DNA from: an uncultured Verrucomicrobiota bacterium
GTDB lineage: Bacteria; Verrucomicrobiota; Verrucomicrobiia; Limisphaerales; SXQI01
DNA length: 47,662 nt
Assembly: GCA_964611245.1 (NCBI GenBank)
Contig: CAZSXX010000001.1
Location: 5,038-52,699, forward strand
Reading direction: 5' to 3'
In this document: positions 5,271-47,662 of the stretch, piece after piece
How the letters are laid out: each line of letters starts with the position of its first letter
Position numbering within the stretch: position 1 is the stretch's first letter
Made by a program: the position numbers and the translations under genes
Notes under the pieces: generated by a model
What the model was told of the DNA's origin: nothing
Database searches by the model: none
The model's input: the letters and a program-made list of their open reading frames with translations, nothing else

Positions 5271-5301
5271 ATCAAGGCCCAGTCGGGCGAATCGCATAAA
5301 A

Positions 5302-5967: not shown

Positions 5968-6016
5968 TCGCGAAAGTTCGTTAGATCGCGGCGAGCGCCC
6001 GCGAATCAAGGACAGA

Positions 6017-18129: not shown

Positions 18130-18156
18130 ATTGTCAGTTAAGATGGGACTGACAAT
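18130..18156 (+). promoter_or_regulatory. Perfect 9-bp inverted repeat (ATTGTCAGT-N9-ACTGACAAT) overlapping the start codon of the pseudopilin-like gene
   Basis: Arms at 18130-18138 and 18148-18156. The right arm contains the A and T of ATG 18155. It could be an RNA stem-loop occluding the start or a palindromic operator. Function is not established. Confidence 0.35.
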
Positions 18157-30089: not shown

Positions 30090-31318
30090 GCGCGCCGGGC
30101 CCCATTTTGGACGCCCAAAAGAGCCTGGCCTGCATTCATTGTGGGATTTGCCTTTCCTCCTGCCCCACCTACCTCGAAACCGGCGATGAAAACGACTCGC
30201 CCCGCGGCCGCATCTATTTGATGCGGGGCATGGACAGCGGCCGGCTGCCCGTCGGCGGCGCGCCGGTCAAGCACATCGACCGCTGCCTGGGCTGCCGCGC
30301 ATGCGAGGCCGCCTGCCCCAGCGGCGTGCAATATGGGGCGTTGCTCGAGGAAACGCGGGACCACATCGAACGGCATCACCACCGCTCCCTTTGGCAAAAA
30401 CTCCTCCGGCGCGTGGCCATTGAGCAAGTGTTTCCATTTCCCTGGCGCATCCGCCTTTCGCTGCTCCCGGCCCGCGCCATCCGCCGCCTTGGGCTTGAGG
30501 GCGAACTGCCCCGGTTCCTGCGTGATCTGCTGGCCCTCCTCCCTGAGCAAATCCGCAGTTTTCCGGCGCCGGAATTTTCCCCCGCCATTGGCGAACGCAA
30601 GGGCCGCGTGGGCATGGTGTCGGGATGCGTCATGAGCGTGCTGTTCAGCCGCACCAACGCCGCGACCATCCGTCTCCTCAATCAGCTTGGCTACGACGTC
30701 GTCACCCCCCGGGATCAAGTCTGCTGCGGCGCCTTGCACGCGCACAGCGGCCGGCTCGCCCAAGCCCGCTCCCTGGCGCGGAAAAACATCCGGGCGTTTG
30801 ACGACGCCAAGGTTGACCTGATCGTCATTAACGCCGCGGGCTGCGGGTCCTCCCTCAAGGAGTACGGCCATCTTCTGCGGGCCAGTCCCGACGCGGGGCG
30901 GGCCAAGGCCTTTGAGGCCAAGGTGCTTGACCTCACGGAAATGCTGGCGCGCCATCCCGGGCTGGAGGTCAACCCGCGCCTGGCCCAGTACCGCACCACG
31001 TACCACGACGCCTGCCACCTTGCGCACGCGCAGGGGATCACTCTTCCGCCCCGCGAGTTGGTCCTGAAAGCCGCCGGCAAGAATTACGTGGAGCTGCCCG
31101 AGTCGGACGTCTGCTGCGGCAGCGCCGGAACCTACAACCTCACCGAACCCGCCATGGCCGAACGCCTTCAGGCGCGCAAGATAAGCAACATCATCGCGAC
31201 CGGAGCCGAGGTGGTCGTCACCACCAATCCCGGCTGCATCTTGCAGATCCGGGCCGGCCTGAAAAAGGCGGGCGCCGACCGCGTCAAAGTCATCCACATC
31301 GCCGACTACTTGGCTTGA
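30086..31318 (+). CDS. glcF: (Fe-S)-binding protein, glycolate oxidase iron-sulfur subunit GlcF-like
   Basis: 410 aa. Two 4Fe-4S motifs 'CIHCGICLSSCP' and 'CLGCRACEAACP'. Two CCG-type Cys-rich domains ('CCGALH', 'AAGCGS', 'CCGSAGTYN', 'NPGC'). Confidence 0.85.
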   Translation: MSAPGPILDAQKSLACIHCGICLSSCPTYLETGDENDSPRGRIYLMRGMDSGRLPVGGAPVKHIDRCLGCRACEAACPSGVQYGALLEETRDHIERHHHRSLWQKLLRRVAIEQVFPFPWRIRLSLLPARAIRRLGLEGELPRFLRDLLALLPEQIRSFPAPEFSPAIGERKGRVGMVSGCVMSVLFSRTNAATIRLLNQLGYDVVTPRDQVCCGALHAHSGRLAQARSLARKNIRAFDDAKVDLIVINAAGCGSSLKEYGHLLRASPDAGRAKAFEAKVLDLTEMLARHPGLEVNPRLAQYRTTYHDACHLAHAQGITLPPRELVLKAAGKNYVELPESDVCCGSAGTYNLTEPAMAERLQARKISNIIATGAEVVVTTNPGCILQIRAGLKKAGADRVKVIHIADYLA

Positions 31319-32568
31319 GCCATGGATTCATGCTCCTCCAGGATCGGTTTCCGGTGCGTGCGATCCAGGCCAAAATGATCCGCGTAAATACGGCGCAGGT
31401 CCGCCCCAAGCCCATCCCACGAAAGCCGGGCGGCCACTGACTTCTGGCCTTCCCGAGTCAGGCGTTCGCGGAGTTGGCCGTCGCTCAGGGCCCGCAATGT
31501 CTCCGCCGCAAAATCCTTTTCCGTGTCCGCCAGCAGCGCGTCGTGCCCATGAACGATCCCCAGTCCCTGCGCGCCAATCGTGGTCGAGACCACCGGCGTG
31601 CCCATCGCGAGCGACTCGACGATCTTCAGCCGTGTGCCCCCGCCGATCCGGATGGGCACCACTTGGACCCACGCCTGCTGATAATAGGGCCGCACATCCG
31701 GCACCCCGCCAGTGACGGTCACGTTGGGAATCTTCCCAAATGCGCGGACCTCCGGCGTCGGCTCCTTTCCAACCACCCACATTTGCAGGTCGGGCTCCCG
31801 GGCCGCGATGGACGGATGGATCTTTTCGAAGTACCAACGAAGCCCGTCGACGTTCGGGTTGTAGTCCATGGCTCCGCAAAAGAGGATGGTCGGACGCCCG
31901 CACTTCGCGCCGAAAGCCGGATTGGCCTTGAAATGGGCCAAGTCCACGCCATTGGCGATCACCTCGACCGCCCCCCGGCGGGTGATGTACTTTCGCACAA
32001 ACGTCAGGTCGTCCCCGCCGCAGACTATCTGGACCGCGCACCGACGCGCCACCGCCCGCTCATACCTCCACAATTTCGCCATGTTCTCGACGTTCAAAAG
32101 CTGGGTTTTGAAGGAAAACTTCATGCGCTGTTGTTCCATGGCCTGGTACTGCAAGTCAACGCGGGTGCGGTCCACCACAAGCGGCACGCTCCGGAGCCGC
32201 CGCAGGAATGGCCGTGCCATCACCACGTCAAACACATGGGCAGCCGCGTATTCCCCGCCCGCGAGGCGGCGCGCGATGGCCTCGTCAAGCGCCGGGATGT
32301 TCCAATGCTCGATGGTCGCAGGCAGGGGGTTCGCGAGCCGGGATGGGATCAGCCGCTGCCATTGGGGATGTTCAAAGGGGACAATTTCGACCTCCCGGCA
32401 GAATTTCTCGAACTCCCGCGCGTGCTCGCGCCCGGCCCCATTTTCAGCCAGCGCGACCAAATCCACCTCGTGCGCCTGGCACAGTCCCTTGAGCAGGTGG
32501 AAGGCGCGGTAATGGGCGCCGCGGTCCAGCGGATAAGGCACATAGGGATACACAGCGAGTATTTTCAT
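31306..32568 (-). CDS. Glycosyltransferase family 4 (GT-B, group 1)
   Basis: 420 aa. 'MKILAVYPYVPYPLDRGAHYR'. C-terminal 'RIGGGTRLKIVESLAMGTPVVSTTIGAQGL' (EX7E-type region). Confidence 0.85.
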   Translation of the reverse strand: MKILAVYPYVPYPLDRGAHYRAFHLLKGLCQAHEVDLVALAENGAGREHAREFEKFCREVEIVPFEHPQWQRLIPSRLANPLPATIEHWNIPALDEAIARRLAGGEYAAAHVFDVVMARPFLRRLRSVPLVVDRTRVDLQYQAMEQQRMKFSFKTQLLNVENMAKLWRYERAVARRCAVQIVCGGDDLTFVRKYITRRGAVEVIANGVDLAHFKANPAFGAKCGRPTILFCGAMDYNPNVDGLRWYFEKIHPSIAAREPDLQMWVVGKEPTPEVRAFGKIPNVTVTGGVPDVRPYYQQAWVQVVPIRIGGGTRLKIVESLAMGTPVVSTTIGAQGLGIVHGHDALLADTEKDFAAETLRALSDGQLRERLTREGQKSVAARLSWDGLGADLRRIYADHFGLDRTHRKPILEEHESMAQAK

Positions 32569-33701
32569 CAGTTAAATTGGGCCCATATCTTCTGATACGC
32601 GCGCACGAACCCCGCGAAGTCCGCGCTGTCCGTCCCGAGGCGGGCCTGGAGCTTTGCCACCGAATCCGGATCGGACAGCGCCCCGGGTGTCCAGAGCAGC
32701 AACGCCAGCGACTCCAAGAGCCGCGCCCGTGGATACACCGTGGCCAGCCCGCGTGGGCCGAAAGCCCGGAGGTTCAGCAGGAGATTGCGCACCCGGCGTT
32801 GGTCCGGGTGTTTCTCAATGGGATCGAACGCGTAATCGCGGGCCGAGCGGAATCCCTTCCCCAAGCGGCGCGCCTCCAGCCAAAGAAAAATCTGCTCGGA
32901 CAGGTCCCGCATTTCTTGGTGCTCCGCGCGCAAGGCGGCCCGTGTTTCACCCGAGACGAAGGGATGCAGCTTGAAGGACACTCCGGCGGCGTGGTGCCGA
33001 AGCAACTCCGGCAGCCAGGCCAACCCCGGGGTCGGCTCAATTTTCTCCAGCCTCCGATGCCGCTCCCGGCAGCTCGCGTGGTACCTGCCGAAGGCCGTCA
33101 ACACGGCGTCCCCCAAGGCGAGCTGCGCCTTGGCGATGTTGCGCCTCACGAAATCCGCGTCCTCCCCCGCGAAGGCCGTTTGGTCCAGTCGGGCCGCCGC
33201 AAAGAGCAGGCCTGAGGATCGGTTCATCAGCAGCCGGGTCGCCTCATGCAGCGGGATGCGGTGCGCGGCGCGGTGGTGTTCGCAGTCAAATTCCTCGCGG
33301 ACTCCGTGCAGCCAGCGGTGGCCGACCACCAGGTCGTGGTAGAACATGCTCACCTGCGCGCGGCGGATTTTCTCGAACGTGAGCAGCTTGATTTCGAACT
33401 CGATGCCCGTCTTGGCCGTCCAATGGTGGGTCAGCTCGAGCAGGCGTTTATTGAACCGGCGTTCCTGCGCCAGCAGCGGGCCCGCGACGAAAATGTAAAA
33501 CTCAAGGTCGTTGTAGGGCTCCTCCCCGCGCGGGCCCCGCACCACGCCGCCCTCCCCGCGCCCATATCCGCCACCCAGGACCACTGCCCGCAATGCCCAC
33601 TCGGGAATGATTCCCCGCACCCCCACCGTGAACGCGGCGCACCAACTTTCCAAGCGTTTCTCCAGCTCCGGGCCTCCGTCCGTTGTGAATCGCTGCGTCA
33701 T
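32568..33701 (-). CDS. Hypothetical protein with Pol-beta-superfamily nucleotidyltransferase-like N-terminus and a helical C-terminal domain
   Basis: 'VVLGGGYGRGEGGVV...YNDLEFYIFV' fits the G[GS]...[DE]h[DE]h minimal NTase pattern. The track start 33716 is a TTG. The first ATG (33701) forms an ATGA overlap with the upstream GT4 stop. Confidence 0.5.
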   Translation of the reverse strand: MTQRFTTDGGPELEKRLESWCAAFTVGVRGIIPEWALRAVVLGGGYGRGEGGVVRGPRGEEPYNDLEFYIFVAGPLLAQERRFNKRLLELTHHWTAKTGIEFEIKLLTFEKIRRAQVSMFYHDLVVGHRWLHGVREEFDCEHHRAAHRIPLHEATRLLMNRSSGLLFAAARLDQTAFAGEDADFVRRNIAKAQLALGDAVLTAFGRYHASCRERHRRLEKIEPTPGLAWLPELLRHHAAGVSFKLHPFVSGETRAALRAEHQEMRDLSEQIFLWLEARRLGKGFRSARDYAFDPIEKHPDQRRVRNLLLNLRAFGPRGLATVYPRARLLESLALLLWTPGALSDPDSVAKLQARLGTDSADFAGFVRAYQKIWAQFN

Positions 33702-34939
33702 GGCAAAGTGGGCCAAAGTCGGACGGTTTCCTCCAAATACGACTCAATCTGGCCGACAATGCGCGGTTCGTCGTAGTTCGCCCGGACTTCGGTTTGGCCC
33801 GCGGCCGAAATGCGCGCTCGCAGCTCGCCGTCGCTGGCCAACCGCTGAATTCGTTCGGCCAGTTCGTCGGCCTGCCCCGCGGCGTAGGTCAGCGCGTTGT
33901 CCCGGTCCCGGAACAGCTCGCGGCTGCCGCCGGTCGTCGTGCCGATGACCGGCAGCCCGCAACTCATCGCCTCCAGCGGGGTCAGGGCGAACGGCTCCGC
34001 CCATTCCGAGGTGAAGAGCAGCGCGTCGTGCGCGGCGTAAACGGCGGGCATCTGGTCCATGCTGGCCTGTTGAAAACGCACCGGGATCTTGTTCACCGCC
34101 ACAAAATCATGGAGCTCCCGCACATAGCCCGCCTCGCCGACGCCGTAAACATTCAGGACCACCCCCAACCCTTTGGGGAGCGCCTTCATCGCTTTGAGCG
34201 CCGTCAGGATTCCTTTGTCTTCGCTTAGCCGCCCAACCCAAAGAAGGTTGCGGCAAGGCTCATCCGCCCGGCGGGCCGCGCCATTGAAACGCCGGGTGTC
34301 CACCGGGCAATAAATGACGGCGCCATGCATCACGTCGAAGCCCGCGGCGGCCGTGAGTTTACGCAGCGCCTTGCTGCAAAAATAGACGCGGCGGAACTTC
34401 AGGGCGCCCGCCGCCGCAGTCGGTGCCAGCCGGTCCACACCCGCCCGGACTCCCACCGCCCGCAAGACTGCCCTCGCCACGCTCCGGCTCCGGGAGCCGG
34501 GCTGGTTCCACCAGTTCATCCAGACATCGGCCGCCAGCCCCCTGGCGATCCAATGGTCGGACAGGTAAAAAGCGGTCGGCACGCCCATTCGCTCCAGCGT
34601 GGTGAGCAGCGATTTCGAAATTCCGCCCATGTTCCAGACGTAGACCAAATCAGGTTGGAATCGCGCGAGCGCGGCCCGAAGAATCCGGTTGTTCGTGATC
34701 TCCAGCCTGGCCAGGGACCCGATGCCACGCCACGCGTGCCCGTAAAATCCATGCACCAACAAGGAACGCTCGACCCCAGTCAGTTCGTCGCCCGTGGGAT
34801 TGTTCACCCGATGGTTGGACGTCAGCGTCTCGACGATGTGTCCCCGCGCCCGCAGCGCCTTGACCACGGCGTGGCAAATCAATTCATAGCCCCCGAGGTA
34901 ATGGGGCGGGAAAAGATTGGTGAGAACGAGGATTTTCAT
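33698..34939 (-). CDS. Glycosyltransferase family 4 (GT-B, group 1)
   Basis: Start is ATG 34939 ('MKILVLTNLFPPHYLGGYE'), an ATGA overlap with the GT2 stop. 'WVGRLSEDKGI', 'SEWAEPFALTPLEAMSCGLPVIGTTTGGSRELF'. Confidence 0.85.
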   Translation of the reverse strand: MKILVLTNLFPPHYLGGYELICHAVVKALRARGHIVETLTSNHRVNNPTGDELTGVERSLLVHGFYGHAWRGIGSLARLEITNNRILRAALARFQPDLVYVWNMGGISKSLLTTLERMGVPTAFYLSDHWIARGLAADVWMNWWNQPGSRSRSVARAVLRAVGVRAGVDRLAPTAAAGALKFRRVYFCSKALRKLTAAAGFDVMHGAVIYCPVDTRRFNGAARRADEPCRNLLWVGRLSEDKGILTALKAMKALPKGLGVVLNVYGVGEAGYVRELHDFVAVNKIPVRFQQASMDQMPAVYAAHDALLFTSEWAEPFALTPLEAMSCGLPVIGTTTGGSRELFRDRDNALTYAAGQADELAERIQRLASDGELRARISAAGQTEVRANYDEPRIVGQIESYLEETVRLWPTLP

Positions 34940-37424: not shown

Positions 37425-37427
37425 CGC

Positions 37428-42177: not shown

Positions 42178-43379
42178 ACGGCCGATAGCTCCTCCTTCAT
42201 TTCGCGGGCTGGCGGCGCCTGGTTTTGGCGCGCTGCCTCCTCTGACTCCAGGATCATCAAGTCATGAATCTGGGGAATGGATTGAATCCTCTCCGGCGTT
42301 GGCTGGTTTGAAAACAGCGCCGCGAAGCTCTGGGGATCGTCCGGATGGTACCCATGCATCGCGCGGATGGGCCGCTCGCCCATGTGGCTTGGAACGATCA
42401 AGACCCCTTCCTGGACCAAAAAGATCAACTCGCCAAATTCGCCGTTCGGGAAAAAGGCGCGCAGTTTCTTCAGCTCCGCCTCCTCCATGATCCGGCCTTC
42501 AGGAACTTTCCGCAGCGCGTCCGCGATGACGGTGCCTACCCCATTTTTCAGGAACCAGAACCGGGCCATCGTCGAGTCAAAAACAGCCACGTAATCGACG
42601 CCGAACTTCAACGGCAAGCGGCCGATGATCCGCATCAAATCCAGCAACCGGTCGCAATTGGCCATCCCGTGGTCGCTGAACACATACAGCCGGACCTCGT
42701 CGTATTTCTCCCCTGCCTGCTCCACCAACCGTCCGACCCACGCCTCATACTGCGCCAGGCGCGGCCCGATCAGCGCGGAATCGTTGCCCGCAGTGTGCAG
42801 CAACCCATCCAGCCCAGGCCAGTAGATGAAGGCAAAGTCGATCCCCCCGTTCCGGATCGCCTCCCCTGCGGCATCCCGATTGTCCTCCTCGCTCCGCAGC
42901 GGATCGCTCACGAAATAGGGAATCCCCTTGTTTTCCAGGTGGTCGAAGATGTTTGGCCCGCGGTTCATCCCGCGTGGTTGGAGCGGGCTTTTCTTCTCCG
43001 TGAAATCAAACAGGTGAATGTGGGAGAATGGGATGTTGTACAGGTCAAAATACCCTTTGAACCCGAGGCGTTCCTTGACCATTTTTGTCAGGAGGCGCCG
43101 GACAATTCTACGCCCGCTGATCGCCTTTGGGATAAACCGCAGCCAACGCAATTTCGAGAACGGCGAATGGACCGGGTCATAAACGAAGTAACACCAGTTG
43201 TGGTGCTCATCCGGCCAGCGCCCCGAAACGATGCTGGGCACACAGGTCGAGCTGTAGCCAAAAACCGAGCCGAGCTTCCGCCGGTTGGGCGCCAAGGCTT
43301 GGAGGAACGGGCGATCCTTGATGATCTCCCAGCCACAGGCGTCGATCATCACAAAAAGCGGAAGGATTCGTTTTTTCAT
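42174..43379 (-). CDS. Alkaline-phosphatase-superfamily protein (type I phosphodiesterase / nucleotide pyrophosphatase-like)
   Basis: 401 aa. 'LFVMIDACGWE' metal site, 'YSSTCVPSIVSGRWPDEHH' putative Thr nucleophile region, 'YWPGLDGLLHTAG', 'VFSDHGM'. Confidence 0.75.
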   Translation of the reverse strand: MKKRILPLFVMIDACGWEIIKDRPFLQALAPNRRKLGSVFGYSSTCVPSIVSGRWPDEHHNWCYFVYDPVHSPFSKLRWLRFIPKAISGRRIVRRLLTKMVKERLGFKGYFDLYNIPFSHIHLFDFTEKKSPLQPRGMNRGPNIFDHLENKGIPYFVSDPLRSEEDNRDAAGEAIRNGGIDFAFIYWPGLDGLLHTAGNDSALIGPRLAQYEAWVGRLVEQAGEKYDEVRLYVFSDHGMANCDRLLDLMRIIGRLPLKFGVDYVAVFDSTMARFWFLKNGVGTVIADALRKVPEGRIMEEAELKKLRAFFPNGEFGELIFLVQEGVLIVPSHMGERPIRAMHGYHPDDPQSFAALFSNQPTPERIQSIPQIHDLMILESEEAARQNQAPPAREMKEELSAV

Positions 43380-45148
43380 TCAGCCAGGATTAAAAACGTT
43401 TGATCGTCCGTTTGCGCGGCGCTGGACTGGAATTCGCTGAGGTCACCGGCGAGGTCGAGCGCCAATCGCTCGGCGCTGAAGCCGCGTGGCGCCCCCTTGC
43501 GTAGCCATTTCACCAAGCGGTCCTGCCCGAAGAATTCGCCCAAGGGGTTGCGCGCTTCCGTCAAGCCGTCCGTGTAGAGCAGCAGCTTGCAGGGCCGGTC
43601 CAAAACTTGGGTGTGGCTTTCGAAAAGGGTGTTGGGCTGGATTCCAAGGGGCAATCCATCGGGCGCTATCGAGACGATCGATCCCTGGTCATCGATCGCC
43701 AGCAGCCCGGGGCAATGCCCCGCGCTGGCCGCCGTGATCTGCCGCCGCGTCGCGTCCACGAACACCAGTTGCGCGGTGATGAACATGTCCACCGCCGAGA
43801 GTTCCTCATACATCAGCCGGTTGGCCCGCTCCAGCAGCGTGGCTGGCTGGTCCATCCACTCGGGGGCGGCCCGGAGAAGGCTGCGCAACACCGCGGCGAA
43901 CATCGCGGCCGGGATTCCCTTGCCCATCACGTCGGCGATCACCAGAAGAACCGCGTCGTCGCGCACCCTCAGCACATCGTAGAAGTCGCCCCCGACCTGG
44001 TGCGCGCTTTGGCAAAACCCCGCGAGGTCCATCCCGGGCAGGCGCGGGATGCTTTTGGGCAGCAGTGACCGCTGGATTTGCTGGGCGATTTCCAACTCGC
44101 GCGAAACCAGCCGCGTGCGGACCTGGTCTTCGTTGAAGCGCGAATTGACGATCTGGATCGCGAGGAAGTCAGAGAACGTGTGCACCACGTTCGCCTGCAC
44201 CGCCGTGAACGAAGGCCCCGCCGCGTCCTTCGCCACCGCCACCGTCCCAATCAAATGGTCCCCCAGGAAAATGGGATGCGCGAGGCCGTGCGCTTTCGGG
44301 TTCACTTCGAAGAGCGGATCGCCCTCCCGCAACGGCCGGTGGGAATCGAACCAGACGTCATCCCGCCCCCGCCCCGCCTGCAGCTCCACCGAACCCCCGG
44401 CGCGGTCAAATGTGATCCGTTCCGTTCCCGTGAACGGGCGCGACGCGGTGAACACCCGAAGTTCCCCGCCCTCGCGCGGCACCAACCGCAGCACAAACCA
44501 ATCCGCCGAGGTGATCTGCGCCAGGTCCATCAGCAGGCGCCGGGCGAACTCCTCCAAGTCGTTGGTCTTCCCCAGCTCCGAGCTGCACCGGAAAATGGCC
44601 GACAGGGACTCGTAACAGGAGCTCAGCTCCTCCGCCATGTCCCGGATCACCTGTTCGCTCTCCGAGAGCCGGCGCTTGGCCTCCTCCGCCGAGATCTCCA
44701 TCGTTTTCTCCTCCGGCTCGGGCGCCCTCCTCTTCCGCATCACCAAACAATTCTCCCCTTGTCCACGCAGGTATTTCACGTCGTCCATGAGCGAGTCGAT
44801 CAGGTAAAGGCCCCGCCCGCTTTCCCTCTCAAAATCCGGCAGCTCGATTTCCCGCGGCATCTCAAATCCGCGGGTGTGGTCATGCACCCGGATCTCCAGC
44901 TCAGTCCGCCCGCACACAACCTCCAGCAACACCTCTTTTCCCCGCGCGTCCCCTTCGGCGTATTTGATCGCATTGTTGCAGGCCTCCACGGCCGCCAGCT
45001 CGCACCCGTCCACGTCCGCGCGCGAAAACCCCTGGTCCGCCAGGAACACCTTCATCTGCGCCGAAGCCTGCCGGACCTTCGAGAGGTCGCATTCCATGCG
45101 GACCTGCAGGACCACCGGCCGGGAAACGGGAAGCGCGTGGAGGGCCAT
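43376..45148 (-). CDS. Fusion protein: RsbW/SpoIIAB-like Ser kinase (HATPase_c), GAF-like domain and PP2C (SpoIIE-type) phosphatase
   Basis: 590 aa. N-box 'AAVEACNNAIKYA', 'VHDHTRGF', 'GRGLYLIDSLMDDV'. The middle roughly 150 aa is GAF-like. 'GGDFYDV', 'LVIADVMGKGIPAAMFAA', 'LLLYTDGLTEA' and 'DDQTFLILA' are PP2C/SpoIIE motifs. Confidence 0.85.
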   Translation of the reverse strand: MALHALPVSRPVVLQVRMECDLSKVRQASAQMKVFLADQGFSRADVDGCELAAVEACNNAIKYAEGDARGKEVLLEVVCGRTELEIRVHDHTRGFEMPREIELPDFERESGRGLYLIDSLMDDVKYLRGQGENCLVMRKRRAPEPEEKTMEISAEEAKRRLSESEQVIRDMAEELSSCYESLSAIFRCSSELGKTNDLEEFARRLLMDLAQITSADWFVLRLVPREGGELRVFTASRPFTGTERITFDRAGGSVELQAGRGRDDVWFDSHRPLREGDPLFEVNPKAHGLAHPIFLGDHLIGTVAVAKDAAGPSFTAVQANVVHTFSDFLAIQIVNSRFNEDQVRTRLVSRELEIAQQIQRSLLPKSIPRLPGMDLAGFCQSAHQVGGDFYDVLRVRDDAVLLVIADVMGKGIPAAMFAAVLRSLLRAAPEWMDQPATLLERANRLMYEELSAVDMFITAQLVFVDATRRQITAASAGHCPGLLAIDDQGSIVSIAPDGLPLGIQPNTLFESHTQVLDRPCKLLLYTDGLTEARNPLGEFFGQDRLVKWLRKGAPRGFSAERLALDLAGDLSEFQSSAAQTDDQTFLILAE

Positions 45149-45153
45149 GGGGG

Positions 45154-45462
45154 CTAATCGTTGACGATCTCAAAAATCCGGTGCATCCGCGTCAGCTCCA
45201 GGATTTGCTGGACCGGCGCGGTCGGGTTCATCAGCCGCACGGTGCCATTCCGGTTGCAGGTCGCCTTGTGCAGGGAAATCAGCGCCCCCAGCCCGCAACT
45301 GTCCACGAACATCGTCTGGGACATGTCGATTTCGATGTTCTTTTGGGGCTCCCGGAACTCCGCCTTGACTTGGTCCCGGAACACATTGGAATTGGTGGCT
45401 CCGAGCTCTTTGATCCCACTCACGCTCAGGGTTTCACCGTTCGATTGAACTTTCATATTCAT
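45154..45462 (-). CDS. STAS-domain anti-sigma-factor antagonist (RsbV/SpoIIAA-like)
   Basis: Start at ATG 45462 or 45456 ('MNMKVQSNGETLSVSGIKEL'). 'IEIDMSQTMFVDSCGLGALISL' keeps the phosphorylatable Ser of the DSxGLG motif (codon 45298-45300). The upstream extension to 45525 is unlikely. Confidence 0.85.
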   Translation of the reverse strand: MNMKVQSNGETLSVSGIKELGATNSNVFRDQVKAEFREPQKNIEIDMSQTMFVDSCGLGALISLHKATCNRNGTVRLMNPTAPVQQILELTRMHRIFEIVND

Positions 45463-45597
45463 GATTTTTTCCCGACGAAATGACTTAACGCGCCAAGGGT
45501 ATCGACCCCAGCTCCGCGCCAACATCAGGCACGGTCCGGTCTCGACTCCGCTCCTTTACCTTGCCCGCCATCGGGCAATCCGGGTCAAACCCACATT

Positions 45598-46473
45598 TCA
45601 ACCCGGCAATTTCGCTTTCAGGCTTGCCCACGCCGCGATGGGCCGGGCCATGGAGCCTTGGAATATGGCGGGGATTCGCTTGCCCGACAGCCAGCCCTTG
45701 ACCGCGCGCCCGGCCGGGTCCACCGAAGAGAGCAAATACGCGTCCGGCACGACGATGTGGGAACCTGTGCGCCAATTGATCAGCCCGCTGCCCCAAGCCA
45801 GGGATTCCGAAATCCTCGTCAACGCTCCGACAAACGTTTGCGGCCCCACCCACGCATCCTCCAATTCCGCCCGTTCATCGATGAATGTCTCGTCCTCAAC
45901 GATCACGTTGGGCCCAATGGAAGCATGGGCTCCCACATGCACGCCGCGCCCGAGCCAGCAGGGGGCGGTCAGCTTCGCGTTCGGGGCGACTTGGCAATCG
46001 CGCCCCACCCAGACGCCGGGCGTCCGTTCCCTCATCCCAACTCGGAACCCGGGCTGCGCCCGCTCCAAGATCTTCCGGCACGCGGCGAACCATCCCGCGT
46101 AATCGGCGAACATCGGATAAGAATCGTCCCACGGCAGGTGGTCCACCACCTGGACATCTCCGGGCTCCGGCAGGTACCCGGACTCGCTGGCCGGCTTGTG
46201 TTTGCGCCGCGCCTCCGCCGGGGTCGGCTCAATCGCCTCCGCGTGCACCGTCGCCTCGATGCCCCATTTTTCCCCGGACCCAGCCACCCGACGGATCTCT
46301 TCCTGCCGGTCGGCGGCGAGGATTTTCACCTGCTTGAACCCGTTCGCCGCTAGATGCCGGAGCCAAAGCTCCAGCGGGGTTTCGCCAAACAGGGGCAAGG
46401 CCGCCAGCGGCAGCGTGCCGGTGAGTTGGTCCATTTCACTCCGTTCACTGGGACAAATCAGGATCATTTTCAT
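45598..46473 (-). CDS. Nucleotidyltransferase-fold-like N-domain plus left-handed beta-helix (hexapeptide) C-domain protein; N-domain apparently degenerate
   Basis: Start is ATG 46473 ('MKMILICPSERSEMDQLTGTLPLAALPLFGETPLELWLRHLAANGFKQVKIL'). The topology resembles sugar-1-P nucleotidyltransferases (COG1208-like), but the G-x-G-T-R signature is replaced by 'CPSERSEM'. The C-terminal half has hexapeptide-like periodicity ('VGRDCQVAPNAKLTAPCWLGRGVHVGAHASIGPNVIVED'). Confidence 0.55.
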   Translation of the reverse strand: MKMILICPSERSEMDQLTGTLPLAALPLFGETPLELWLRHLAANGFKQVKILAADRQEEIRRVAGSGEKWGIEATVHAEAIEPTPAEARRKHKPASESGYLPEPGDVQVVDHLPWDDSYPMFADYAGWFAACRKILERAQPGFRVGMRERTPGVWVGRDCQVAPNAKLTAPCWLGRGVHVGAHASIGPNVIVEDETFIDERAELEDAWVGPQTFVGALTRISESLAWGSGLINWRTGSHIVVPDAYLLSSVDPAGRAVKGWLSGKRIPAIFQGSMARPIAAWASLKAKLPG

Positions 46474-46475
46474 GT

Positions 46476-47204
46476 TCAACAGGCTCCTCTCCCCAGCAGC
46501 ACGGCTGGAACAGTTTTCACGCAAATCCACACATCCAGCCAAAAGCTCTGGCTTTCGATGTATTGGACGTCCAATTGCACTTGCTCCGGAAAATCGATGT
46601 TGGCCCGCCCGCCAATCTGCCAAAAACAGGTCAACCCCGGAGTCACGGCCAGCCGCTGACGGTCTTTCATCGTGTAGAGCGCCACTTCCCGCGGCACCGG
46701 CGGGCGCGGCCCGACCATCGACATCTCACCCTTGAGCACGTTGACGAACTGCGGCAGCTCATCCAGCGAGTATTTCCGCAAAATGCCCCCGATCCGCGTG
46801 ATCCTCGGGTCGTTCTTCATTTTGAATGTCACCCCAGTGGCATGCCCGTTTTGCGCCAGCAATTTTTGCAACTGCGCCTCCGCGCCCACCCGCATCGACC
46901 GGAACTTGAACATTTTGAACTCGCGGCCGAATTTTCCGACCCGACGCTGGGCGAAGATGACTGGCCCGCCATCCTCCACCTTCACCAGCAGGGCGATCAC
47001 CGCCAAAACCGGGCTGATCGCGATGAGGATGCACGTCGCGGCGACGAGGTCGAACAACCGCTTGAGGAACGTGCTGCTGGCCACCACTGCTTTCCACGAA
47101 ATCCGCTTCCAATAGCAGTAGATGCTCCATCGCACCCGCGAGGTGGATGACTCCATCGAGCCAAACCGCTTGATCAACAATTCCTTTAGCTCTTGGTCGC
47201 TCAT
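46476..47204 (-). CDS. Bacterial sugar transferase (small monotopic phosphoglycosyl transferase, initiating enzyme)
   Basis: Start is ATG 47204, an ATGA overlap with the udk stop. 'KRLFDLVAATCILIAISPVLAVIALLVKVEDGGPVIFAQRRVGKFGREFKMFKFRSM', 'DPRITRIGGILRKYSLDELPQFVNVLKGEMSMVGPRP'. Confidence 0.9.
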   Translation of the reverse strand: MSDQELKELLIKRFGSMESSTSRVRWSIYCYWKRISWKAVVASSTFLKRLFDLVAATCILIAISPVLAVIALLVKVEDGGPVIFAQRRVGKFGREFKMFKFRSMRVGAEAQLQKLLAQNGHATGVTFKMKNDPRITRIGGILRKYSLDELPQFVNVLKGEMSMVGPRPPVPREVALYTMKDRQRLAVTPGLTCFWQIGGRANIDFPEQVQLDVQYIESQSFWLDVWICVKTVPAVLLGRGAC

Positions 47205-47662
47205 TTGCCTCCCAGCATTTTTGAAATTTTCTCCGCCAGCTTCGCGGCCACCGCCCCGTCGGCCGGTCCCGGCCAGATCAAATCCGCCCGCGCGCTTTGC
47301 GGATTCACATGCTTCCGCTGCATCGGCAGCACCCGTTCGGCATACCACGCGTTCACCTCCGCGGCGGCGCGCCCCCTCTCCCGCGTGTCGCGCTCCAACC
47401 GGCGGCCCAGGCACAGCTCCGGCGAGGCGTCCAAAAACACGGCCAGTTGATAAAACCGCCGAAGCGCAGGCTTATGCAGCAGCCACAATCCCTCAAAAAT
47501 CACCACGCGGCGCGGCTCCAGCACAACCTCCCCGGCCTCCCGCGTGTGGGTGTTGAAATTGTATTGCGGAACGCGCGCCGCCCGGCCGCACGCGGCGTGC
47601 AGAAGGGACTTGCGGAAGGCCGGCCAATCCAACGCGTTCGGATGGTCAAAATTGACTTCCCG
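47201..47662 (-). CDS. udk: Uridine kinase, partial (N-terminal P-loop part lies beyond the right edge)
   Basis: The frame is open to position 47662. 'REVNFDHPNALDWPAFRKSLLHAACGRAARVPQYNFNTHTR...VVIFEGLWLL...AVFLDASPELCLGRRLERDTRERGR' is collinear with the Udk region 'NYDHP...PVYSY..HTR...ILEG...FVD...R..RD..ERGR'. Confidence 0.85.
   Translation of the reverse strand, partial: REVNFDHPNALDWPAFRKSLLHAACGRAARVPQYNFNTHTREAGEVVLEPRRVVIFEGLWLLHKPALRRFYQLAVFLDASPELCLGRRLERDTRERGRAAAEVNAWYAERVLPMQRKHVNPQSARADLIWPGPADGAVAAKLAEKISKMLGGK

What the first reader, a model, noticed from the sequence alone, without database searches (positions are those of the whole stretch)
31306..47662. A 16-kb translationally coupled operon merges glycan assembly, an NRPS-like module, tailoring enzymes and a partner-switching switch
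Thirteen consecutive minus-strand genes run in this order: udk (partial), initiating phosphoglycosyl transferase, degenerate NTP-transferase/LbH protein, STAS, RsbW-GAF-PP2C fusion, alkaline-phosphatase-family enzyme, FkbM methyltransferase, GNAT-(C*)-A-T-TE, Wzx-like flippase, GT2, GT4, Pol-beta NTase-like protein, GT4.

The junctions read directly from the sequence are ATGA or TGATG overlaps at 47201-04, 43376-79, 42174-77, 41425-28, 35850-53, 34936-39, 33698-701 and 32568. Gaps of 2-5 nt occur at 46474-75, 45149-53 and 37425-27. Only one real intergenic gap exists (135 nt, 45463-45597). This points to one or two transcripts and stoichiometric co-expression.

The window shows a flippase but no Wzy polymerase, chain-length regulator or outer-membrane exporter. 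That fits a lipid-linked oligosaccharide or glycolipid better than a classical capsule.

The inferred logic is that a carrier-protein-tethered (acyl-)amino acid, a methyl group and a phospho-substituent are added to a flipped glycan, gated post-translationally by a Ser-phosphorylation switch. I do not recognise this composition as a characterised pathway. The operon continues beyond the right edge.
Basis: partly seen in the sequence, partly recalled or inferred. Interest (0 to 1): 0.78.

Follow-up and report, generated by a model that had tools for sequence, protein, structure and literature searches.

The report
Switch-controlled glycan locus with NRPS-like enzyme
This is a real, conserved but uncharacterised gene cluster of Verrucomicrobia that builds a lipid-linked surface sugar unit, seems to decorate it with one specific amino acid through a rare NRPS-like enzyme, and carries its own protein-phosphorylation switch; in this window the key enzyme gene is broken by a one-base frameshift.

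Summary
The gene order, domain calls and every junction coordinate hold. One thing was missed. The GNAT-(C*)-A-T-TE "gene" is two overlapping ORFs here, because one base is missing in a T6 run (40732-40737). All relatives encode one 1306-1402 aa protein.

The 13-gene order recurs in independent metagenome contigs down to 41% NRPS identity, some with different flanks, so this is a functional module. It has layers:
- **Backbone:** STAS, RsbW-PP2C, NPP-type phosphodiesterase, Wzx, GT2 and an ANT-like nucleotidyltransferase. It is widespread and in relatives lies beside Wzy, Wza-type or exosortase genes.
- **Rare cassette:** FkbM plus the NRPS-like gene, about eight 50%-identity clusters among 1.84 billion representatives.
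- **Dispensable trio:** udk-PGT-LbH.

The NRPS-like enzyme is tandem GNAT, C-domain remnant, A, T, TE. Its specificity code (DAED[IV]GA[IV]TK) and its cysteine TE nucleophile are conserved across the family.

Best reading: a Wzx-pathway repeat unit is tailored in the cytoplasm, before flipping, and gated by a SypA/SypE-like phospho-switch.

Partner-switch control of polysaccharide synthesis and carrier-protein acylation of glycans both have precedents, so this is a new variant of a known kind. Chemistry, transcripts and switch target remain inferred.

The parts
47201..47662 (-). udk (uridine kinase), 3' part only. About 55 N-terminal codons lie beyond the window edge. First gene of the conserved block.
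   Evidence: PF00485 91 bits, profile 60-188. NF004018 122.6 bits. Conserved as first gene in L001 and L092/L093. The gene upstream in L001 is not conserved.
46476..47204 (-). Small initiating phosphoglycosyl transferase (242 aa from ATG 47204). ATGA overlap with udk.
   Evidence: Bac_transf 229 bits. TIGR03025 294.2 bits against a cut-off of 295.55. Two TM-like segments. Junction verified.
45598..46473 (-). Left-handed beta-helix (hexapeptide) protein, 291 aa. The N-terminal half is not recognised by any profile.
   Evidence: Hexapep 34.6 bits; LbH_EIF2B 21.8 bits, below its cut-off. Only the LbH part matches GlmU or GMPP-type NCBIfam models.
45457..45597 (-). The only sizeable intergenic region. 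It contains the conserved decamer GCCTGATGTT (45521-45530), about 60 nt before the STAS start. Probable promoter or regulatory region of the second unit.
   Evidence: Alignment A4 of five loci. No sigma-70-like site and no Rfam family.
45154..45456 (-). STAS-domain anti-sigma-antagonist-like protein (100 aa). Predicted phospho-acceptor Ser53 in DSCGLG (codon 45298-45300).
   Evidence: PF01740 54.6 bits. TIGR00377 60.6 bits, above its cut-off. The Ser is conserved in six loci. Start inferred from the conserved TATGAAAGTTCAA.
43376..45148 (-). Fused RsbW-type Ser kinase (44732-45088), GAF-like domain (44150-44560) and PP2C/SpoIIE phosphatase (43385-43960); 590 aa.
   Evidence: HATPase_c_2 87.6 bits, GAF 24.7 bits, SpoIIE 145.6 bits. 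SiaA and RsbW NCBIfam hits fall below their cut-offs. Kinase N/G boxes and the PP2C motifs GGDFYD, ADVMGKG, YTDGL and DDQT are conserved.
42174..43379 (-). Soluble alkaline-phosphatase-superfamily enzyme of the NPP / type I phosphodiesterase family, 401 aa. Part of the widespread backbone.
   Evidence: PF01663 56.4 bits over the whole profile. The closest solved relative is only ENPP5, E 6.5e-6. Identity is 61-64% in backbone-only loci L096 and L097. No TM segment.
41425..42177 (-). FkbM-family SAM methyltransferase, 250 aa. It always lies directly upstream of the NRPS-like gene (two-gene cassette).
   Evidence: TIGR01444 57 bits against a cut-off of 37.7. PF05050 26.5 bits. It co-occurs with the NRPS gene in every NRPS-bearing locus and is absent from the backbone-only loci L096, L097 and the P0154 contig.
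37428..41425 (-). NRPS-like gene, frameshifted in this window.
- Tandem GNAT: 40632-41425.
- Condensation-domain C-terminal remnant without HHxxxDG: 40092-40574.
- A domain: 38472-40019.
- T domain: 38247-38444, Ser codon 38355-38357.
- TE: 37431-38189, nucleophile Cys codon 37965-37967.
   Evidence: Domain and motif evidence. Relatives are single proteins of 1306-1402 aa.
40732..40737 (-). T6 run (A6 on the + strand) where one base is missing relative to the family reading frame. It splits the gene into ORFs 40427-41428 and 37428-40748.
   Evidence: Repair restores the invariant WVFLQVE. Homologous DNA reads TGGGTTTTCCTGCAG or TGGGTATTTTTGCAG.
35850..37424 (-). MOP-superfamily (Wzx-like) flippase, 524 aa, 11 TM-like segments.
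   Evidence: MatE 36.1 bits and Polysacc_synt_3 24.6 bits, both above their cut-offs. Orthologues hit PF01943. Hydropathy.
34936..35853 (-). GT2 glycosyltransferase, 305 aa. Part of the backbone.
   Evidence: PF00535 75.1 bits. 62% identical in L096 and L097.
33698..34939 (-). GT4 glycosyltransferase, 413 aa from ATG 34939.
   Evidence: PF00534 97.6 bits. Junction verified. Not orthologous to the GT4s of backbone-only loci.
32568..33701 (-). Family without a Pfam model: Pol-beta-type nucleotidyltransferase fold with a helical C-domain, like ANT(4')/AAD(9); 377 aa. Invariant G43-G52 loop, D65-x-E67 and E103. Part of the backbone.
   Evidence: No Pfam or NCBIfam hit. 1618 homologues; none of the 120 listed has a Pfam domain. 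Invariant columns from alignment A2. Model pLDDT 93.9. Foldseek top hits 6sxj, 1kny and 6un8 at E 2e-3 to 5e-3, TM(target) about 0.49.
31306..32568 (-). GT4 glycosyltransferase, 420 aa, last gene. It ends convergently against a GlcF-like gene (30086-31318, + strand).
   Evidence: Glyco_trans_1_4 96.2 bits. TIGR03087 (PEP-CTERM/XrtA-system GT 'stp1') 250 bits, below the 316.65 cut-off.

Best explanation
This is a conserved verrucomicrobial surface-glycan locus organised as two units: udk-PGT-LbH, and STAS through to the last GT4.

**Assembly (inferred from family knowledge).**
- The small PGT primes a polyprenyl phosphate with a sugar-1-phosphate.
- The GT2 and the two GT4 enzymes extend it to a short repeat unit.
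- Soluble enzymes tailor the unit on the cytoplasmic face. These are the NPP-type phosphodiesterase, the ANT-like nucleotidyltransferase, the FkbM methyltransferase and the NRPS-like enzyme.
- The Wzx-like protein then flips it. Polymerisation or ligation and export are encoded elsewhere, as they are next to the orthologous backbone in relatives.

**NRPS-like enzyme (domains shown, chemistry inferred).**
- The A domain adenylates one fixed alpha-amino acid. Its specificity code is the same across the whole family, and acidic residues at positions 239 and 278 point to a cationic side chain.
- The amino acid is loaded on the T domain and passed to the invariant Cys of the TE.
- The TE transfers it to a hydroxyl or amine of the lipid-linked glycan.
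- The N-terminal MshD-like tandem GNAT N-acylates an amine with acyl-CoA.
- The co-inherited FkbM enzyme methylates the same moiety or a neighbouring sugar.

**Switch (parts shown, action inferred).**
- The fused RsbW-GAF-PP2C protein phosphorylates and dephosphorylates Ser53 of the STAS protein, according to a signal read by the GAF-like domain.
- The unphosphorylated STAS protein acts post-translationally on an assembly enzyme, as proposed for SypA/SypE and HenR/All4160.

**This window.** The NRPS-like gene carries a 1-nt deletion in a T run. This copy is either an assembly error or an 'off' allele lacking the intact GNAT-A-T-TE fusion.
For: - **Gene content and tight coupling:**
- **Full 13-gene synteny:** L001 at 59% NRPS identity and L092/L093 at 41%.
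- **Core synteny:** 10 genes in L003 and L004. L087/L091 keeps the order from the RsbW gene (cut at the contig start) to the last GT4 and is flanked downstream by a peptidase M1 gene instead of the GlcF-like gene.
- **Orthologous backbone:** RsbW-PP2C 45%, STAS 44%, Phosphodiest 61-64%, Wzx 42-47%, GT2 62%, NTase 51%. It lies next to Wzy_C, WecG-STAS fusions, Poly_export, and Exosortase_EpsH/EpsI plus a PGT.
- **Cassette behaviour:** FkbM and the NRPS gene are always adjacent, and both are missing from backbone-only loci.
- **A domain:** TIGR01733 395 bits against a cut-off of 317.
- **Conserved NRPS features:** T-domain GGDS Ser, TE GWC[FY]GG Cys, GxHD[TS]ML His, and the code D[AT]ED[IV]GA[IV]TK. 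They hold in 14 aligned proteins, in L087 (43.5% identity) and in six more distant representatives.
- **N-terminus:** tandem-GNAT fold, with VipF at E 1.5e-13 and MshD among the top hits. The RxxGxG acyl-CoA motif is invariant among the closer homologues of alignments A1 and A3, and reads RxxGxA in L087. Residues about 280-430 match the C-terminal half of C domains.
- **Cytoplasmic tailoring:** all tailoring enzymes lack TM segments.
- **Switch parts:** STAS Ser, kinase boxes and PP2C metal motifs are conserved.
- **No evidence against co-transcription:** no internal terminator signal above chance.
- **Precedents:** the syp locus (PMC4517449, PMC3610818) and HenR/All4160 (PMC13555669; bioRxiv 10.64898/2026.04.08.717354).
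Against: - No chemistry, transcript or phosphorylation data exist for any member.
- The acceptor of the aminoacyl group is unknown. Nothing shows that it is the glycan rather than water or a small molecule.
- The A-domain code matches nothing in the searchable literature. Reading the code positions rests on motif mapping from memory of GrsA numbering.
- Cys-TE domains are best known from beta-lactone and beta-lactam formation (ObiF1, SulM), not from glycan transfer.
- The GAF call is borderline (24.7 bits against 22.4) and only 'faint' or absent in orthologues.
- The window copy is frameshifted, so in this genome the decoration step may not operate.
- No Wzy, ligase or exporter is in the window.
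- All related loci come from metagenomes of apparently one phylum, so part of the synteny reflects shared ancestry.
Confidence: 0.55

Rival explanations
1. The FkbM plus GNAT-C*-A-T-TE cassette makes its own small molecule, and only shares an operon with the glycan genes. The product could be an N-acyl amino acid, its methyl ester, or a strained lactone or lactam released by the Cys-TE.
For: - The backbone exists without the cassette.
- Catalytic Cys in TE domains is documented for beta-lactone (ObiF1) and monobactam (SulM) formation (PMC6668435, PMC11298585). ObiF1 is among the PDB sequence matches.
- The enzyme has every domain needed to make and release an N-acyl amino acid on its own.
Against: - The cassette always sits between the phosphodiesterase and flippase genes, with overlapping or near-abutting stop and start codons, in lineages down to 41% identity.
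- No dedicated exporter, regulator or further tailoring genes travel with it.
- The two GT4 genes change together with the presence of the cassette, as expected if the glycan is its acceptor.
Confidence: 0.15
2. The STAS / RsbW-GAF-PP2C pair is a conventional partner switch. The kinase domain sequesters a sigma factor or other transcription regulator encoded elsewhere. The pair sits in this operon for autoregulation and does not act on an enzyme.
For: - The kinase domain is RsbW/SpoIIAB-like.
- Classical systems work this way (review PMC8256260).
- The output of SypA is still unknown (PMC4517449).
- A sigma-54 activator lies near the backbone in L096.
Against: - No sigma factor gene lies in or next to the block in any of the loci examined. 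The only sigma gene in the window is an ECF sigma about 37 kb away, in an unrelated gene neighbourhood.
- Kinase-phosphatase fusions of the SypE kind act through the STAS protein itself.
- Relatives carry glycosyltransferase-STAS fusions (WecG+STAS), as do the cyanobacterial enzymes regulated directly.
Confidence: 0.2
3. In this genome the NRPS-like gene is a genuine null or phase-variable allele, through slipped-strand loss of one T in a T7 tract. The strain population sampled here makes the undecorated glycan.
For: - The missing base lies in a homopolymer.
- The public annotation of the source contig also calls the truncated 1106-aa product (P0001).
- There is a precedent in a glycan-acylation gene: V. 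cholerae wbeL switches by A8 to A7 under phage pressure (PMC3441752).
Against: - Homopolymer indels are a typical assembly or sequencing error.
- Relatives have no long T tract at this site (TTTTCC or TATTTTTG), so the tract is not a conserved contingency locus.
- Both halves keep coding-type composition, and the repaired protein matches every invariant family column, so any inactivation is very recent.
Confidence: 0.25
4. The product is not a polymerised exopolysaccharide. It is a single lipid-linked oligosaccharide used for LPS O-unit capping or for general protein O-glycosylation.
For: - There is no Wzy, chain-length regulator or exporter in the 47.7-kb window or in the 10-kb flanks of L001, L003, L004 and L087.
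- The PGT is of the small monotopic type.
Against: - Orthologous backbones lie next to Wzy_C, Poly_export and exosortase genes.
- The last GT4 resembles the PEP-CTERM/XrtA-system GT model at 250 bits.
- Polymerase genes are often unlinked.
Confidence: 0.3

Closest known systems
Vibrio fischeri syp locus with SypA (STAS) and SypE (RsbW-like kinase, REC, PP2C)
   Same: - A polysaccharide biosynthesis locus (PGT, several GTs, flippase) encodes its own single-domain STAS protein. It also encodes one polypeptide that joins an RsbW-type kinase to a PP2C phosphatase through a central sensory domain.
- No sigma factor is in the locus.
- Regulation acts downstream of transcription (PMC4517449, PMC3610818, PMC10120452).
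   Different: - The central domain here is GAF-like, not a receiver domain.
- The syp locus has 18 genes including Wza/Wzc/Wzy-like functions and sigma-54 regulators. It has no NRPS-like, FkbM, NPP-type or ANT-like genes.
- The sequence relationship was not tested directly.
Cyanobacterial HenR / Alr3423 / All4160 module, and the All4160 homologue XssP
   Same: A PP2C (SpoIIE-type) phosphatase and a Ser kinase set the phosphorylation state of a STAS domain that controls a polysaccharide glycosyltransferase directly (PMC13555669). Relatives of the present locus also carry GT-STAS fusions (WecG+STAS).
   Different: - There the STAS domain is fused to the enzyme, and the kinase and phosphatase are separate, unlinked genes.
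- Here STAS is free-standing and the kinase and phosphatase are fused.
- The target enzyme is unknown here.
Vibrio cholerae O1 wbe tetronate module (WbeL and neighbours)
   Same: - Genes inside a glycan locus supply and attach an acyl substituent (tetronate) to an amino sugar of the unit (PMC3441752). Its acyl-carrier-protein and AMP-ligase-type composition is from memory of the older literature.
- The wbeL gene is subject to homopolymer frameshifting.
   Different: - Those are separate small proteins that activate a hydroxy acid, not a true amino-acid A domain fused to T, TE and a tandem GNAT.
- That glycan uses the ABC-transporter pathway, not Wzx.
Dlt system (DltA/DltC/DltB/DltD) for D-alanylation of teichoic acids
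   Same: An A-domain enzyme loads an amino acid on a carrier protein, and the amino acid ends up esterified to a cell-surface glycopolymer. DltA models match the A domain (232 and 222 bits).
   Different: - Both DltA scores fall below their cut-offs (476 and 560).
- There is no MBOAT (DltB) or DltD.
- Transfer here must be cytoplasmic, through an in-cis TE.
- The specificity code differs.
NRPS termination modules with a cysteine TE (ObiF1, SulM)
   Same: C-A-T-TE-type layout with Cys replacing the canonical Ser nucleophile.
   Different: - Those enzymes have a complete C domain and form beta-lactone or beta-lactam rings in secondary metabolites.
- Here the C domain is a remnant without HHxxxDG, a tandem GNAT is fused N-terminally, and the context is a glycan locus.
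Mycothiol synthase MshD (tandem GNAT)
   Same: Same two-GNAT fold (Foldseek 2c27 at E 2.9e-9 and 1ozp). MshD N-acetylates the amino group of an amino acid already linked to an amino sugar (from memory), which is the kind of step proposed here.
   Different: - Sequence identity in the structural alignment is low (15-16%).
- MshD is free-standing, and the Cys is added by a tRNA-synthetase-like ligase, not by an A-T-TE.

Membership tests
Wzx/Wzy-dependent glycan (O-antigen/EPS) assembly locus | Initiating polyprenyl-phosphate phosphoglycosyl transferase | tested here: met
   Bac_transf 229 bits. TIGR03025 scores 294.2 bits against a cut-off of 295.55.
Wzx/Wzy-dependent glycan (O-antigen/EPS) assembly locus | Cytoplasmic glycosyltransferases that build the unit | tested here: met
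   One GT2 and two GT4, all above their Pfam cut-offs.
Wzx/Wzy-dependent glycan (O-antigen/EPS) assembly locus | MOP-superfamily Wzx flippase | tested here: met
   MatE 36.1 bits and Polysacc_synt_3 24.6 bits, both above their cut-offs. 11 TM-like segments. Orthologues hit PF01943. The NCBIfam WZX_like score of 33.5 is far below its subfamily cut-off of 300.
Wzx/Wzy-dependent glycan (O-antigen/EPS) assembly locus | Wzy polymerase, chain-length regulator and outer-membrane exporter | tested here: not met
   None in the window or in the flanks of L001, L003, L004 and L087. They are present beside the orthologous backbone in L096 (Wzy_C, Poly_export). They may be unlinked here.
Partner-switching module (RsbV/RsbW/RsbU; SypA/SypE type) | Single-domain STAS protein with the conserved phosphorylatable Ser after Asp (DS motif) | tested here: met
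   PF01740 54.6 bits. TIGR00377 60.6 bits against a cut-off of 53.45. FVDSCGLG is conserved in six loci. Equating this Ser with SpoIIAA Ser58 is from memory.
Partner-switching module (RsbV/RsbW/RsbU; SypA/SypE type) | RsbW/SpoIIAB-type GHKL Ser kinase | tested here: met
   HATPase_c_2 87.6 bits. The N-box (ELAxVEAxNNAxKY) and the GRGLxLI box are conserved.
Partner-switching module (RsbV/RsbW/RsbU; SypA/SypE type) | PP2C/SpoIIE phosphatase with metal-binding Asp motifs | tested here: met
   SpoIIE 145.6 bits. GGDFYD, ADVMGKG, YTDGL and DDQT are conserved.
Partner-switching module (RsbV/RsbW/RsbU; SypA/SypE type) | A defined output partner (sigma factor or enzyme) and demonstrated phosphotransfer | not testable with these tools
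   No sigma factor lies in or beside the block in any locus. The target is unknown.
Non-ribosomal peptide synthetase module | Amino-acid adenylation domain with core motifs and the invariant Lys | tested here: met
   TIGR01733 394.7 bits against a cut-off of 317.4. D670 and K968 are invariant.
Non-ribosomal peptide synthetase module | Carrier (T) domain with the GGxS phosphopantetheinylation Ser | tested here: met
   PP-binding 50.8 bits. The GGDS Ser1024 is invariant.
Non-ribosomal peptide synthetase module | Condensation domain with the HHxxxDG active site | tested here: not met
   Only Pfam profile positions 405-456 match. No HHxxxDG is present. The structural match covers only the C-terminal half of C domains. 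One family member (P0239) lacks the remnant altogether.
Non-ribosomal peptide synthetase module | TE domain with the canonical GxSxG Ser nucleophile | tested here: not met
   Thioesterase scores 73.4 bits, but the nucleophile is Cys in every member (GWC[FY]GG). This variant is known from ObiF1 and SulM.
Non-ribosomal peptide synthetase module | Intact reading frame in this window | tested here: not met
   A 1-nt deletion in the T6 run at 40732-40737.
PEP-CTERM / exosortase A (XrtA) EPS system | System-specific GT (TIGR03087) and acyl-CoA ligase (TIGR03098) above the curated cut-offs | tested here: not met
   TIGR03087 scores 250.3 against 316.65. TIGR03098 scores 224.2 against 592.35.
PEP-CTERM / exosortase A (XrtA) EPS system | Exosortase EpsH and EpsI, and PEP-CTERM substrates nearby | tested here: not met
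   Absent from the window. Exosortase_EpsH and EpsI are present 2-4 kb from the orthologous backbone on the P0154 contig. PEP-CTERM proteins were not searched for.
Dlt-type D-alanylation system | DltA equivalog score, plus DltB (MBOAT) and DltD partners | tested here: not met
   NF003417 scores 231.8 against 476. TIGR01734 scores 221.9 against 559.85. No MBOAT or DltD is in the block.
ANT/KNTase-type (Pol-beta superfamily) nucleotidyltransferases | NTase fold with a Gly-rich loop and a carboxylate triad, plus a helical C-terminal domain | tested here: inconclusive
   Model pLDDT 93.9. The ten best PDB matches are AAD(9), ANT(4') and HalB, but at E 2e-3 to 1.3e-2 and TM about 0.28-0.50. G43-G52, D65-x-E67 and E103 are invariant in 40 sequences. 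There is no sequence-profile hit. Substrate and activity are unknown.

The most novel reading that the evidence does not exclude
The tandem-GNAT / C-remnant / A / T / Cys-TE enzyme would be the first NRPS-type, carrier-protein-dependent aminoacyl transferase that acts on a lipid-linked Wzx-pathway glycan.
- It would install a specific, probably cationic, N-acylated and methylated amino acid before flipping.
- The co-conserved ANT-like nucleotidyltransferase and NPP-type phosphodiesterase would form a two-step route to a phosphodiester-linked or phosphate substituent.
- The in-cis STAS/kinase-phosphatase switch would gate an assembly enzyme directly.
- The T-tract frameshift in this genome would be a natural on/off allele of the decoration.
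Probability: 0.25. Interest if true: 0.75.

Novelty: new variant of a known kind. Interest (0 to 1): 0.55.

Why it matters
- **Biology of the group.** Surface glycans of Verrucomicrobia are almost unstudied. This locus type is widespread in metagenomes: the nucleotidyltransferase-like backbone protein has 1618 homologues and no Pfam family.
- **Regulation.** The locus offers a compact model for how partner-switching modules control polysaccharide synthesis without a sigma factor. That question is still open for SypA and has only just been addressed in cyanobacteria.
- **Enzymology.** The rare NRPS-like cassette would extend NRPS logic (A-T-TE with a Cys nucleophile and a fused MshD-like tandem GNAT) from secondary metabolites to glycan decoration. 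It would also define a new specificity code.
- **Annotation.** The family is currently split or mislabelled. The source record calls a truncated 1106-aa product here.

Tried and rejected
- **Exact look-ups.** Look-ups of the window's RsbW-PP2C protein and of P0001 found no indexed contig. The source contig could not be extended.
- **Species-representative genome scan.** It returned 80 ordinary NRPS loci at 41% identity or less. This says nothing about taxonomic distribution. The only taxonomy in hand is 'Verrucomicrobiae/Verrucomicrobiia bacterium' labels.
- **Specificity code in the literature.** Searches for the code and its prefixes found nothing relevant. The substrate stays a guess.
- **Solved structures.** The FkbM protein has no PDB sequence relative. 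The phosphodiesterase has only a weak ENPP5 match.
- **RNA and transcription signals.** Rfam found nothing in the window. There were no sigma-70-like promoter sites, and terminator-like sites were below the shuffled expectation. Transcript structure is therefore inferred only from spacing and synteny.
- **Longer STAS ORF rejected.** Relatives have in-frame stops in the extension of the 123-aa ORF.
- **Programmed -1 frameshifting, considered and not adopted.** A -1 slip on GUU UUU U would yield exactly the consensus WVFLQVE. However, relatives have no slippery tract, and the heptamer is not canonical.
- **PEP-CTERM/XrtA and Dlt membership rejected.** Curated cut-offs are not reached and partner genes are missing.
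- **Literature on this locus type.** A search for a described verrucomicrobial NRPS/EPS/STAS locus returned only irrelevant papers.

Full report
**1. What is in the sequence**

From 31306 to the right edge, the minus strand carries an unbroken series of coding regions with coding-type GC3.
- udk, C-terminal part only;
- a small Bac_transf phosphoglycosyl transferase;
- a hexapeptide/LbH protein;
- a STAS protein;
- a HATPase_c_2, GAF, SpoIIE fusion;
- a PF01663 phosphodiesterase-family protein;
- an FkbM methyltransferase;
- an A/PP-binding/Thioesterase protein preceded by a GNAT;
- a MatE/Polysacc_synt_3 flippase;
- a GT2 and a GT4;
- a protein with no family;
- a second GT4.

The block ends convergently against a GlcF-like gene.

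The other 31 kb of the window hold unrelated genes: ffh, a WD40 Ser/Thr kinase, an ECF sigma, a 1702-aa Ig-repeat protein, dehydrogenase complex genes and three CNNM transporters. They hold no Wzy, chain-length or export gene. Within the cluster, only the flippase and the PGT look like membrane proteins. Two unannotated or weakly annotated upstream ORFs also lack TM segments.

**2.

The 'GNAT-(C*)-A-T-TE gene' is two ORFs in different frames, 40427-41428 and 37428-40748. The GNAT domain is cut in the middle. One frame reads ...DEGCRWVFCRW..., and the other reads MPLGFLQVEAGSVAERLYGKLGF....

Inserting one T into the T6 run at 40732-40737 gives ...CRWVFLQVEAGS.... In an alignment with 13 full-length relatives, C227, W229, F231, L232, Q233, V234 and E235 are invariant. 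The relatives' DNA reads TGGGTTTTCCTGCAG or TGGGTATTTTTGCAG at this site.

So the window lacks exactly one base in a homopolymer. I cannot tell an assembly error from a real null or phase-off allele. The public record of the source contig also calls the truncated 1106-aa product (P0001).

**3. Conservation**

The repaired protein found 14 relatives at 54-65% identity. Thirteen match over the full length and are single polypeptides of 1306-1327 aa; the fourteenth (P0014, 1133 aa) matches over 66% of the query. The next best hits are ordinary NRPSs at about 36%, over the A-T part only.

Gene neighbourhoods of the relatives, with tblastn of all 13 window proteins, gave the following:

| Locus | NRPS identity | Genes present | Note |
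|---|---|---|---|
| L001 | 59% | all 13, same order | full synteny |
| L092 / L093 | 41% | all 13, same order | two contigs, 54 and 90 kb; NTase-like protein 47% |
| L087 / L091 | 43.5% | RsbW to last GT4 | cut at the contig start; downstream gene is a peptidase M1 instead of GlcF |
| L003, L004 | 60-61% | ten genes, STAS to last GT4 | udk-PGT-LbH absent; divergent dehydrogenase and cyclase genes upstream |

The gene upstream of udk in L001 is not conserved. The block therefore starts at udk, and only about 55 udk codons lie outside the window.

**4. The module is layered**

The family-less protein has 1618 homologues at E of 1e-3 or better. None of the 120 listed has a Pfam domain.

Three of its more distant neighbourhoods (about 51-54% identity) carry an orthologous backbone without any FkbM or NRPS gene. 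The backbone comprises STAS, RsbW-PP2C (45%), Phosphodiest (61-64%), Wzx (42-47%), GT2 (62%) and the NTase-like protein (51%). Not every locus has every part; L097 lacks the RsbW-PP2C gene.

These backbones lie beside:
- Wzy_C, WecG+STAS fusion glycosyltransferases, Poly_export genes and a sigma-54 activator (L096);
- a pyruvyl transferase and a WecG+STAS fusion (L097);
- Exosortase_EpsH, EpsI and a long PGT (the P0154 contig).

A fourth relative (L086) has only the NTase-like gene plus a GT4, next to integrases.

FkbM directly precedes the NRPS-like gene in every locus that has either, so the two behave as a two-gene cassette. An exhaustive HMMER search with the N-terminal 229 aa, against 1.84 billion 50%-identity representatives, found only 29 hits at E of 1e-10 or better. 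About eight of them are NRPS-sized clusters. The cassette is rare while the backbone is common.

In relatives the same backbone belongs to Wzy/Wza- or exosortase-type EPS loci.

**5. Anatomy of the NRPS-like enzyme**

- **A domain.** It passes the curated amino-acid adenylation model, 395 bits against 317.
- **T domain.** The GGDS Ser is invariant.
- **TE domain.** The nucleophile is Cys (GGWCFGG), not Ser. The His of GNHDTML and a Glu in LLMET are also invariant. This holds in all 14 aligned proteins, in L087 at 43.5% identity, and in six further representatives at 30-40% N-terminal identity.
- **Specificity code.** I mapped the ten Stachelhaus positions by motif, using GrsA numbering from memory. 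The result is D-A-E-D-[V/I]-G-A-[V/I]-T-K, conserved through the whole family with one D-T-E-D variant. D235 and K517 indicate an alpha-amino acid. Acidic residues at 239 and 278 suggest a basic side chain; this is an inference of low confidence, and the code has no literature match.
- **C remnant.** The region between the GNAT and A domains matches only the last 50 profile positions of Condensation and has no HHxxxDG.
- **N-terminus.** A model of the N-terminal 432 aa of orthologue P0013 has pLDDT 74 and is good in the GNAT core and the C remnant. It matches tandem-GNAT proteins best: VipF at E 1.5e-13, MshD, MAB_4324 and a glucosamine N-acetyltransferase. The aminoacyl-tRNA-dependent dupGNAT enzymes MprF/A-PGS and Sba18 rank lower. 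Residues about 280-430 match the C-terminal half of C domains. The RxxGxG acyl-CoA motif (R206, G209, G211) is invariant among the closer homologues and reads RxxGxA in L087.
- **Closest solved multidomain relatives.** LgrA, AB3403 (C-A-T-TE) and, further down the list, ObiF1.

**6. Other enzymes**

- **NTase-like protein.** The model is confident, pLDDT 93.9. Its ten best PDB matches are Pol-beta-fold nucleotidyltransferases: nine are the aminoglycoside enzymes AAD(9) and ANT(4'), and one is Hailong HalB. Scores are modest, E about 2e-3 and TM about 0.49 on the target. A Gly-rich loop, D65-x-E67 and E103 are invariant in 40 sequences.
- **Phosphodiesterase-family protein.** It covers the whole PF01663 profile. 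Read by eye, it keeps NPP-type metal and nucleophile motifs (DACGW, SSTCVPS, SDHGM, HGYHP); I did not test this.
- **Location.** The NRPS-like enzyme, the FkbM enzyme, the GTs, the phosphodiesterase-family protein and the NTase-like protein all lack TM segments. Those with known cofactor needs use ATP, acyl-CoA, SAM or nucleotide sugars, which are cytoplasmic (established knowledge).
- **LbH protein.** Its N-terminal half is not recognised by any model. 'Degenerate NTP-transferase' remains an eye reading.

**7. The switch**

The STAS protein keeps the Asp-Ser of FVDSCGLG (Ser53). The fusion protein keeps the GHKL N-box and the GRGLxLI box, and the four PP2C motifs GGDFYD, ADVMGKG, YTDGL and DDQT. 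This holds in the window, L001, L003, L004 and L093. L096 supplies only the fusion protein and L097 only the STAS protein.

The middle domain is strongly conserved, but it is only a borderline GAF by Pfam. No sigma factor accompanies the block in any locus.

Partner-switch control of polysaccharide synthesis is established or proposed in several systems:
- V. fischeri: SypA/SypE inside the syp locus (PMC4517449, PMC3610818);
- Nostoc (PMC9127174);
- Anabaena, where HenR and Alr3423 control the STAS-glycosyltransferase All4160 (PMC13555669).

**8. Transcription units**

- Spacing is tight everywhere except upstream of STAS: about 141 nt here, 214 nt in L001, about 170-240 nt in L093.
- That region holds a conserved GCCTGATGTT about 60 nt before the start in four of five loci.
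- In L003 and L004 the block begins there.
- There are no sigma-70-like sites, no excess of terminator-like hairpins and no Rfam hit.

I infer two units, udk-PGT-LbH and STAS through to the last GT4. Read-through is possible, and this is not shown.

**9. Most likely mechanism, and rivals**

Best explanation (confidence 0.55):
- A Wzx-pathway repeat unit is assembled on polyprenyl phosphate.
- It is tailored in the cytoplasm.
- The rare cassette adds one specific amino acid through A, then T, then Cys-TE, then the glycan, with GNAT-dependent N-acylation and FkbM methylation.
- The STAS/kinase-phosphatase pair gates the process post-translationally.

Gene content, domains, motif conservation, synteny and cassette behaviour are shown. 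Every chemical step, the acceptor, the order of GNAT action, the switch target and the transcripts are inferred.

Rivals:
- The cassette makes its own small molecule; the Cys-TE precedent is lactone or lactam formation (0.15).
- The switch works through an unlinked transcription factor (0.2).
- This genome carries a real off allele, as with V. cholerae wbeL A8 to A7 (PMC3441752) (0.25; compatible with the main model).
- The product is an unpolymerised LLO for O-unit or protein glycosylation (0.3; a sub-variant of the main model).

**10. Comparison with known systems, and novelty**

Each ingredient has a precedent:
- syp-type loci with an in-locus STAS protein and kinase-phosphatase fusion;
- cyanobacterial STAS-regulated glycosyltransferases;
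- carrier-protein-dependent acylation in the V. cholerae O1 locus, and Dlt;
- Cys-TE NRPS modules;
- MshD-type tandem GNATs.

Membership in the PEP-CTERM/XrtA and Dlt families fails on curated cut-offs and missing partners. The combination is not described in the searchable literature. This applies above all to the tandem-GNAT, C-remnant, A, T, Cys-TE protein embedded in a glycan locus, and to the Pfam-less NTase-like backbone protein. I rate it a new variant of a known kind, of moderate to good interest.

**11. Dead ends**

- Exact look-ups of two window proteins failed.
- The one genome-collection scan was wasted on generic NRPS motifs, so taxonomic breadth beyond 'Verrucomicrobiae/-iia bacterium' labels is unknown.
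- The FkbM protein has no PDB sequence relative, and the phosphodiesterase has only a weak ENPP5 match.
- Searches for the specificity code found nothing.

Noticed in passing
window 40732-40737 (T6 on the minus strand): A single-base deletion in a homopolymer splits the NRPS-like gene. A -1 slip on GUU UUU U, or one extra U, would restore exactly the family consensus WVFLQVE. This could be an assembly error, a null allele or a phase-variable tract.
   Followed up: partly
window 45521-45530 (minus strand); L001, L003, L004 in alignment A4: The decamer GCCTGATGTT is conserved about 60 nt upstream of the STAS start in four of five loci. The ATG inside it opens short ORFs that are not conserved in relatives. 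It is a candidate promoter or operator of the STAS-to-GT4 unit.
   Followed up: partly
L096 13005-14465; L097 13347-14816: Relatives of the backbone locus encode WecG-family glycosyltransferases fused to a STAS domain. They lie next to the free STAS and RsbW-PP2C genes and are reminiscent of cyanobacterial STAS-glycosyltransferases. They suggest glycosyltransferases as direct targets of the switch.
   Followed up: no
L086 10001-12340 (Verrucomicrobiia, 9.9-Mb contig): The NTase-like gene and a GT4 occur as an isolated pair, flanked by integrases and a PIN/Phd toxin-antitoxin pair. The pair may move as a mobile sub-module.
   Followed up: no
window 47201-47204; L001 3510-4115; L093 3124-3780: Uridine kinase is the conserved first gene of the block, and in the window and L001 it overlaps the PGT start codon. 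The reason for linking nucleoside salvage to a UMP-releasing PGT is unexplained.
   Followed up: partly
window 24745-28315 (minus strand): Three tandem CNNM/CBS/CorC-type transporter paralogues lie in a row with overlapping stop and start codons.
   Followed up: no
window 2319-11125 (plus strand): A 983-aa Ser/Thr kinase with WD40 repeats is followed by an ECF-type sigma factor and a 1702-aa secreted protein with TSP3 and Ig-like repeats. This may be a surface-protein regulatory unit unrelated to the glycan block.
   Followed up: no
window 18131-18862 (plus strand); L001 2412-3326: Prepilin-type N-terminal methylation motif (N_methyl) proteins appear here; the window copy also matches DUF1559.
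   Followed up: no
P0239 (1211 aa) against the other family members: One divergent family member lacks the condensation-domain remnant altogether and joins the tandem GNAT directly to the A domain. The remnant is therefore dispensable.
   Followed up: no
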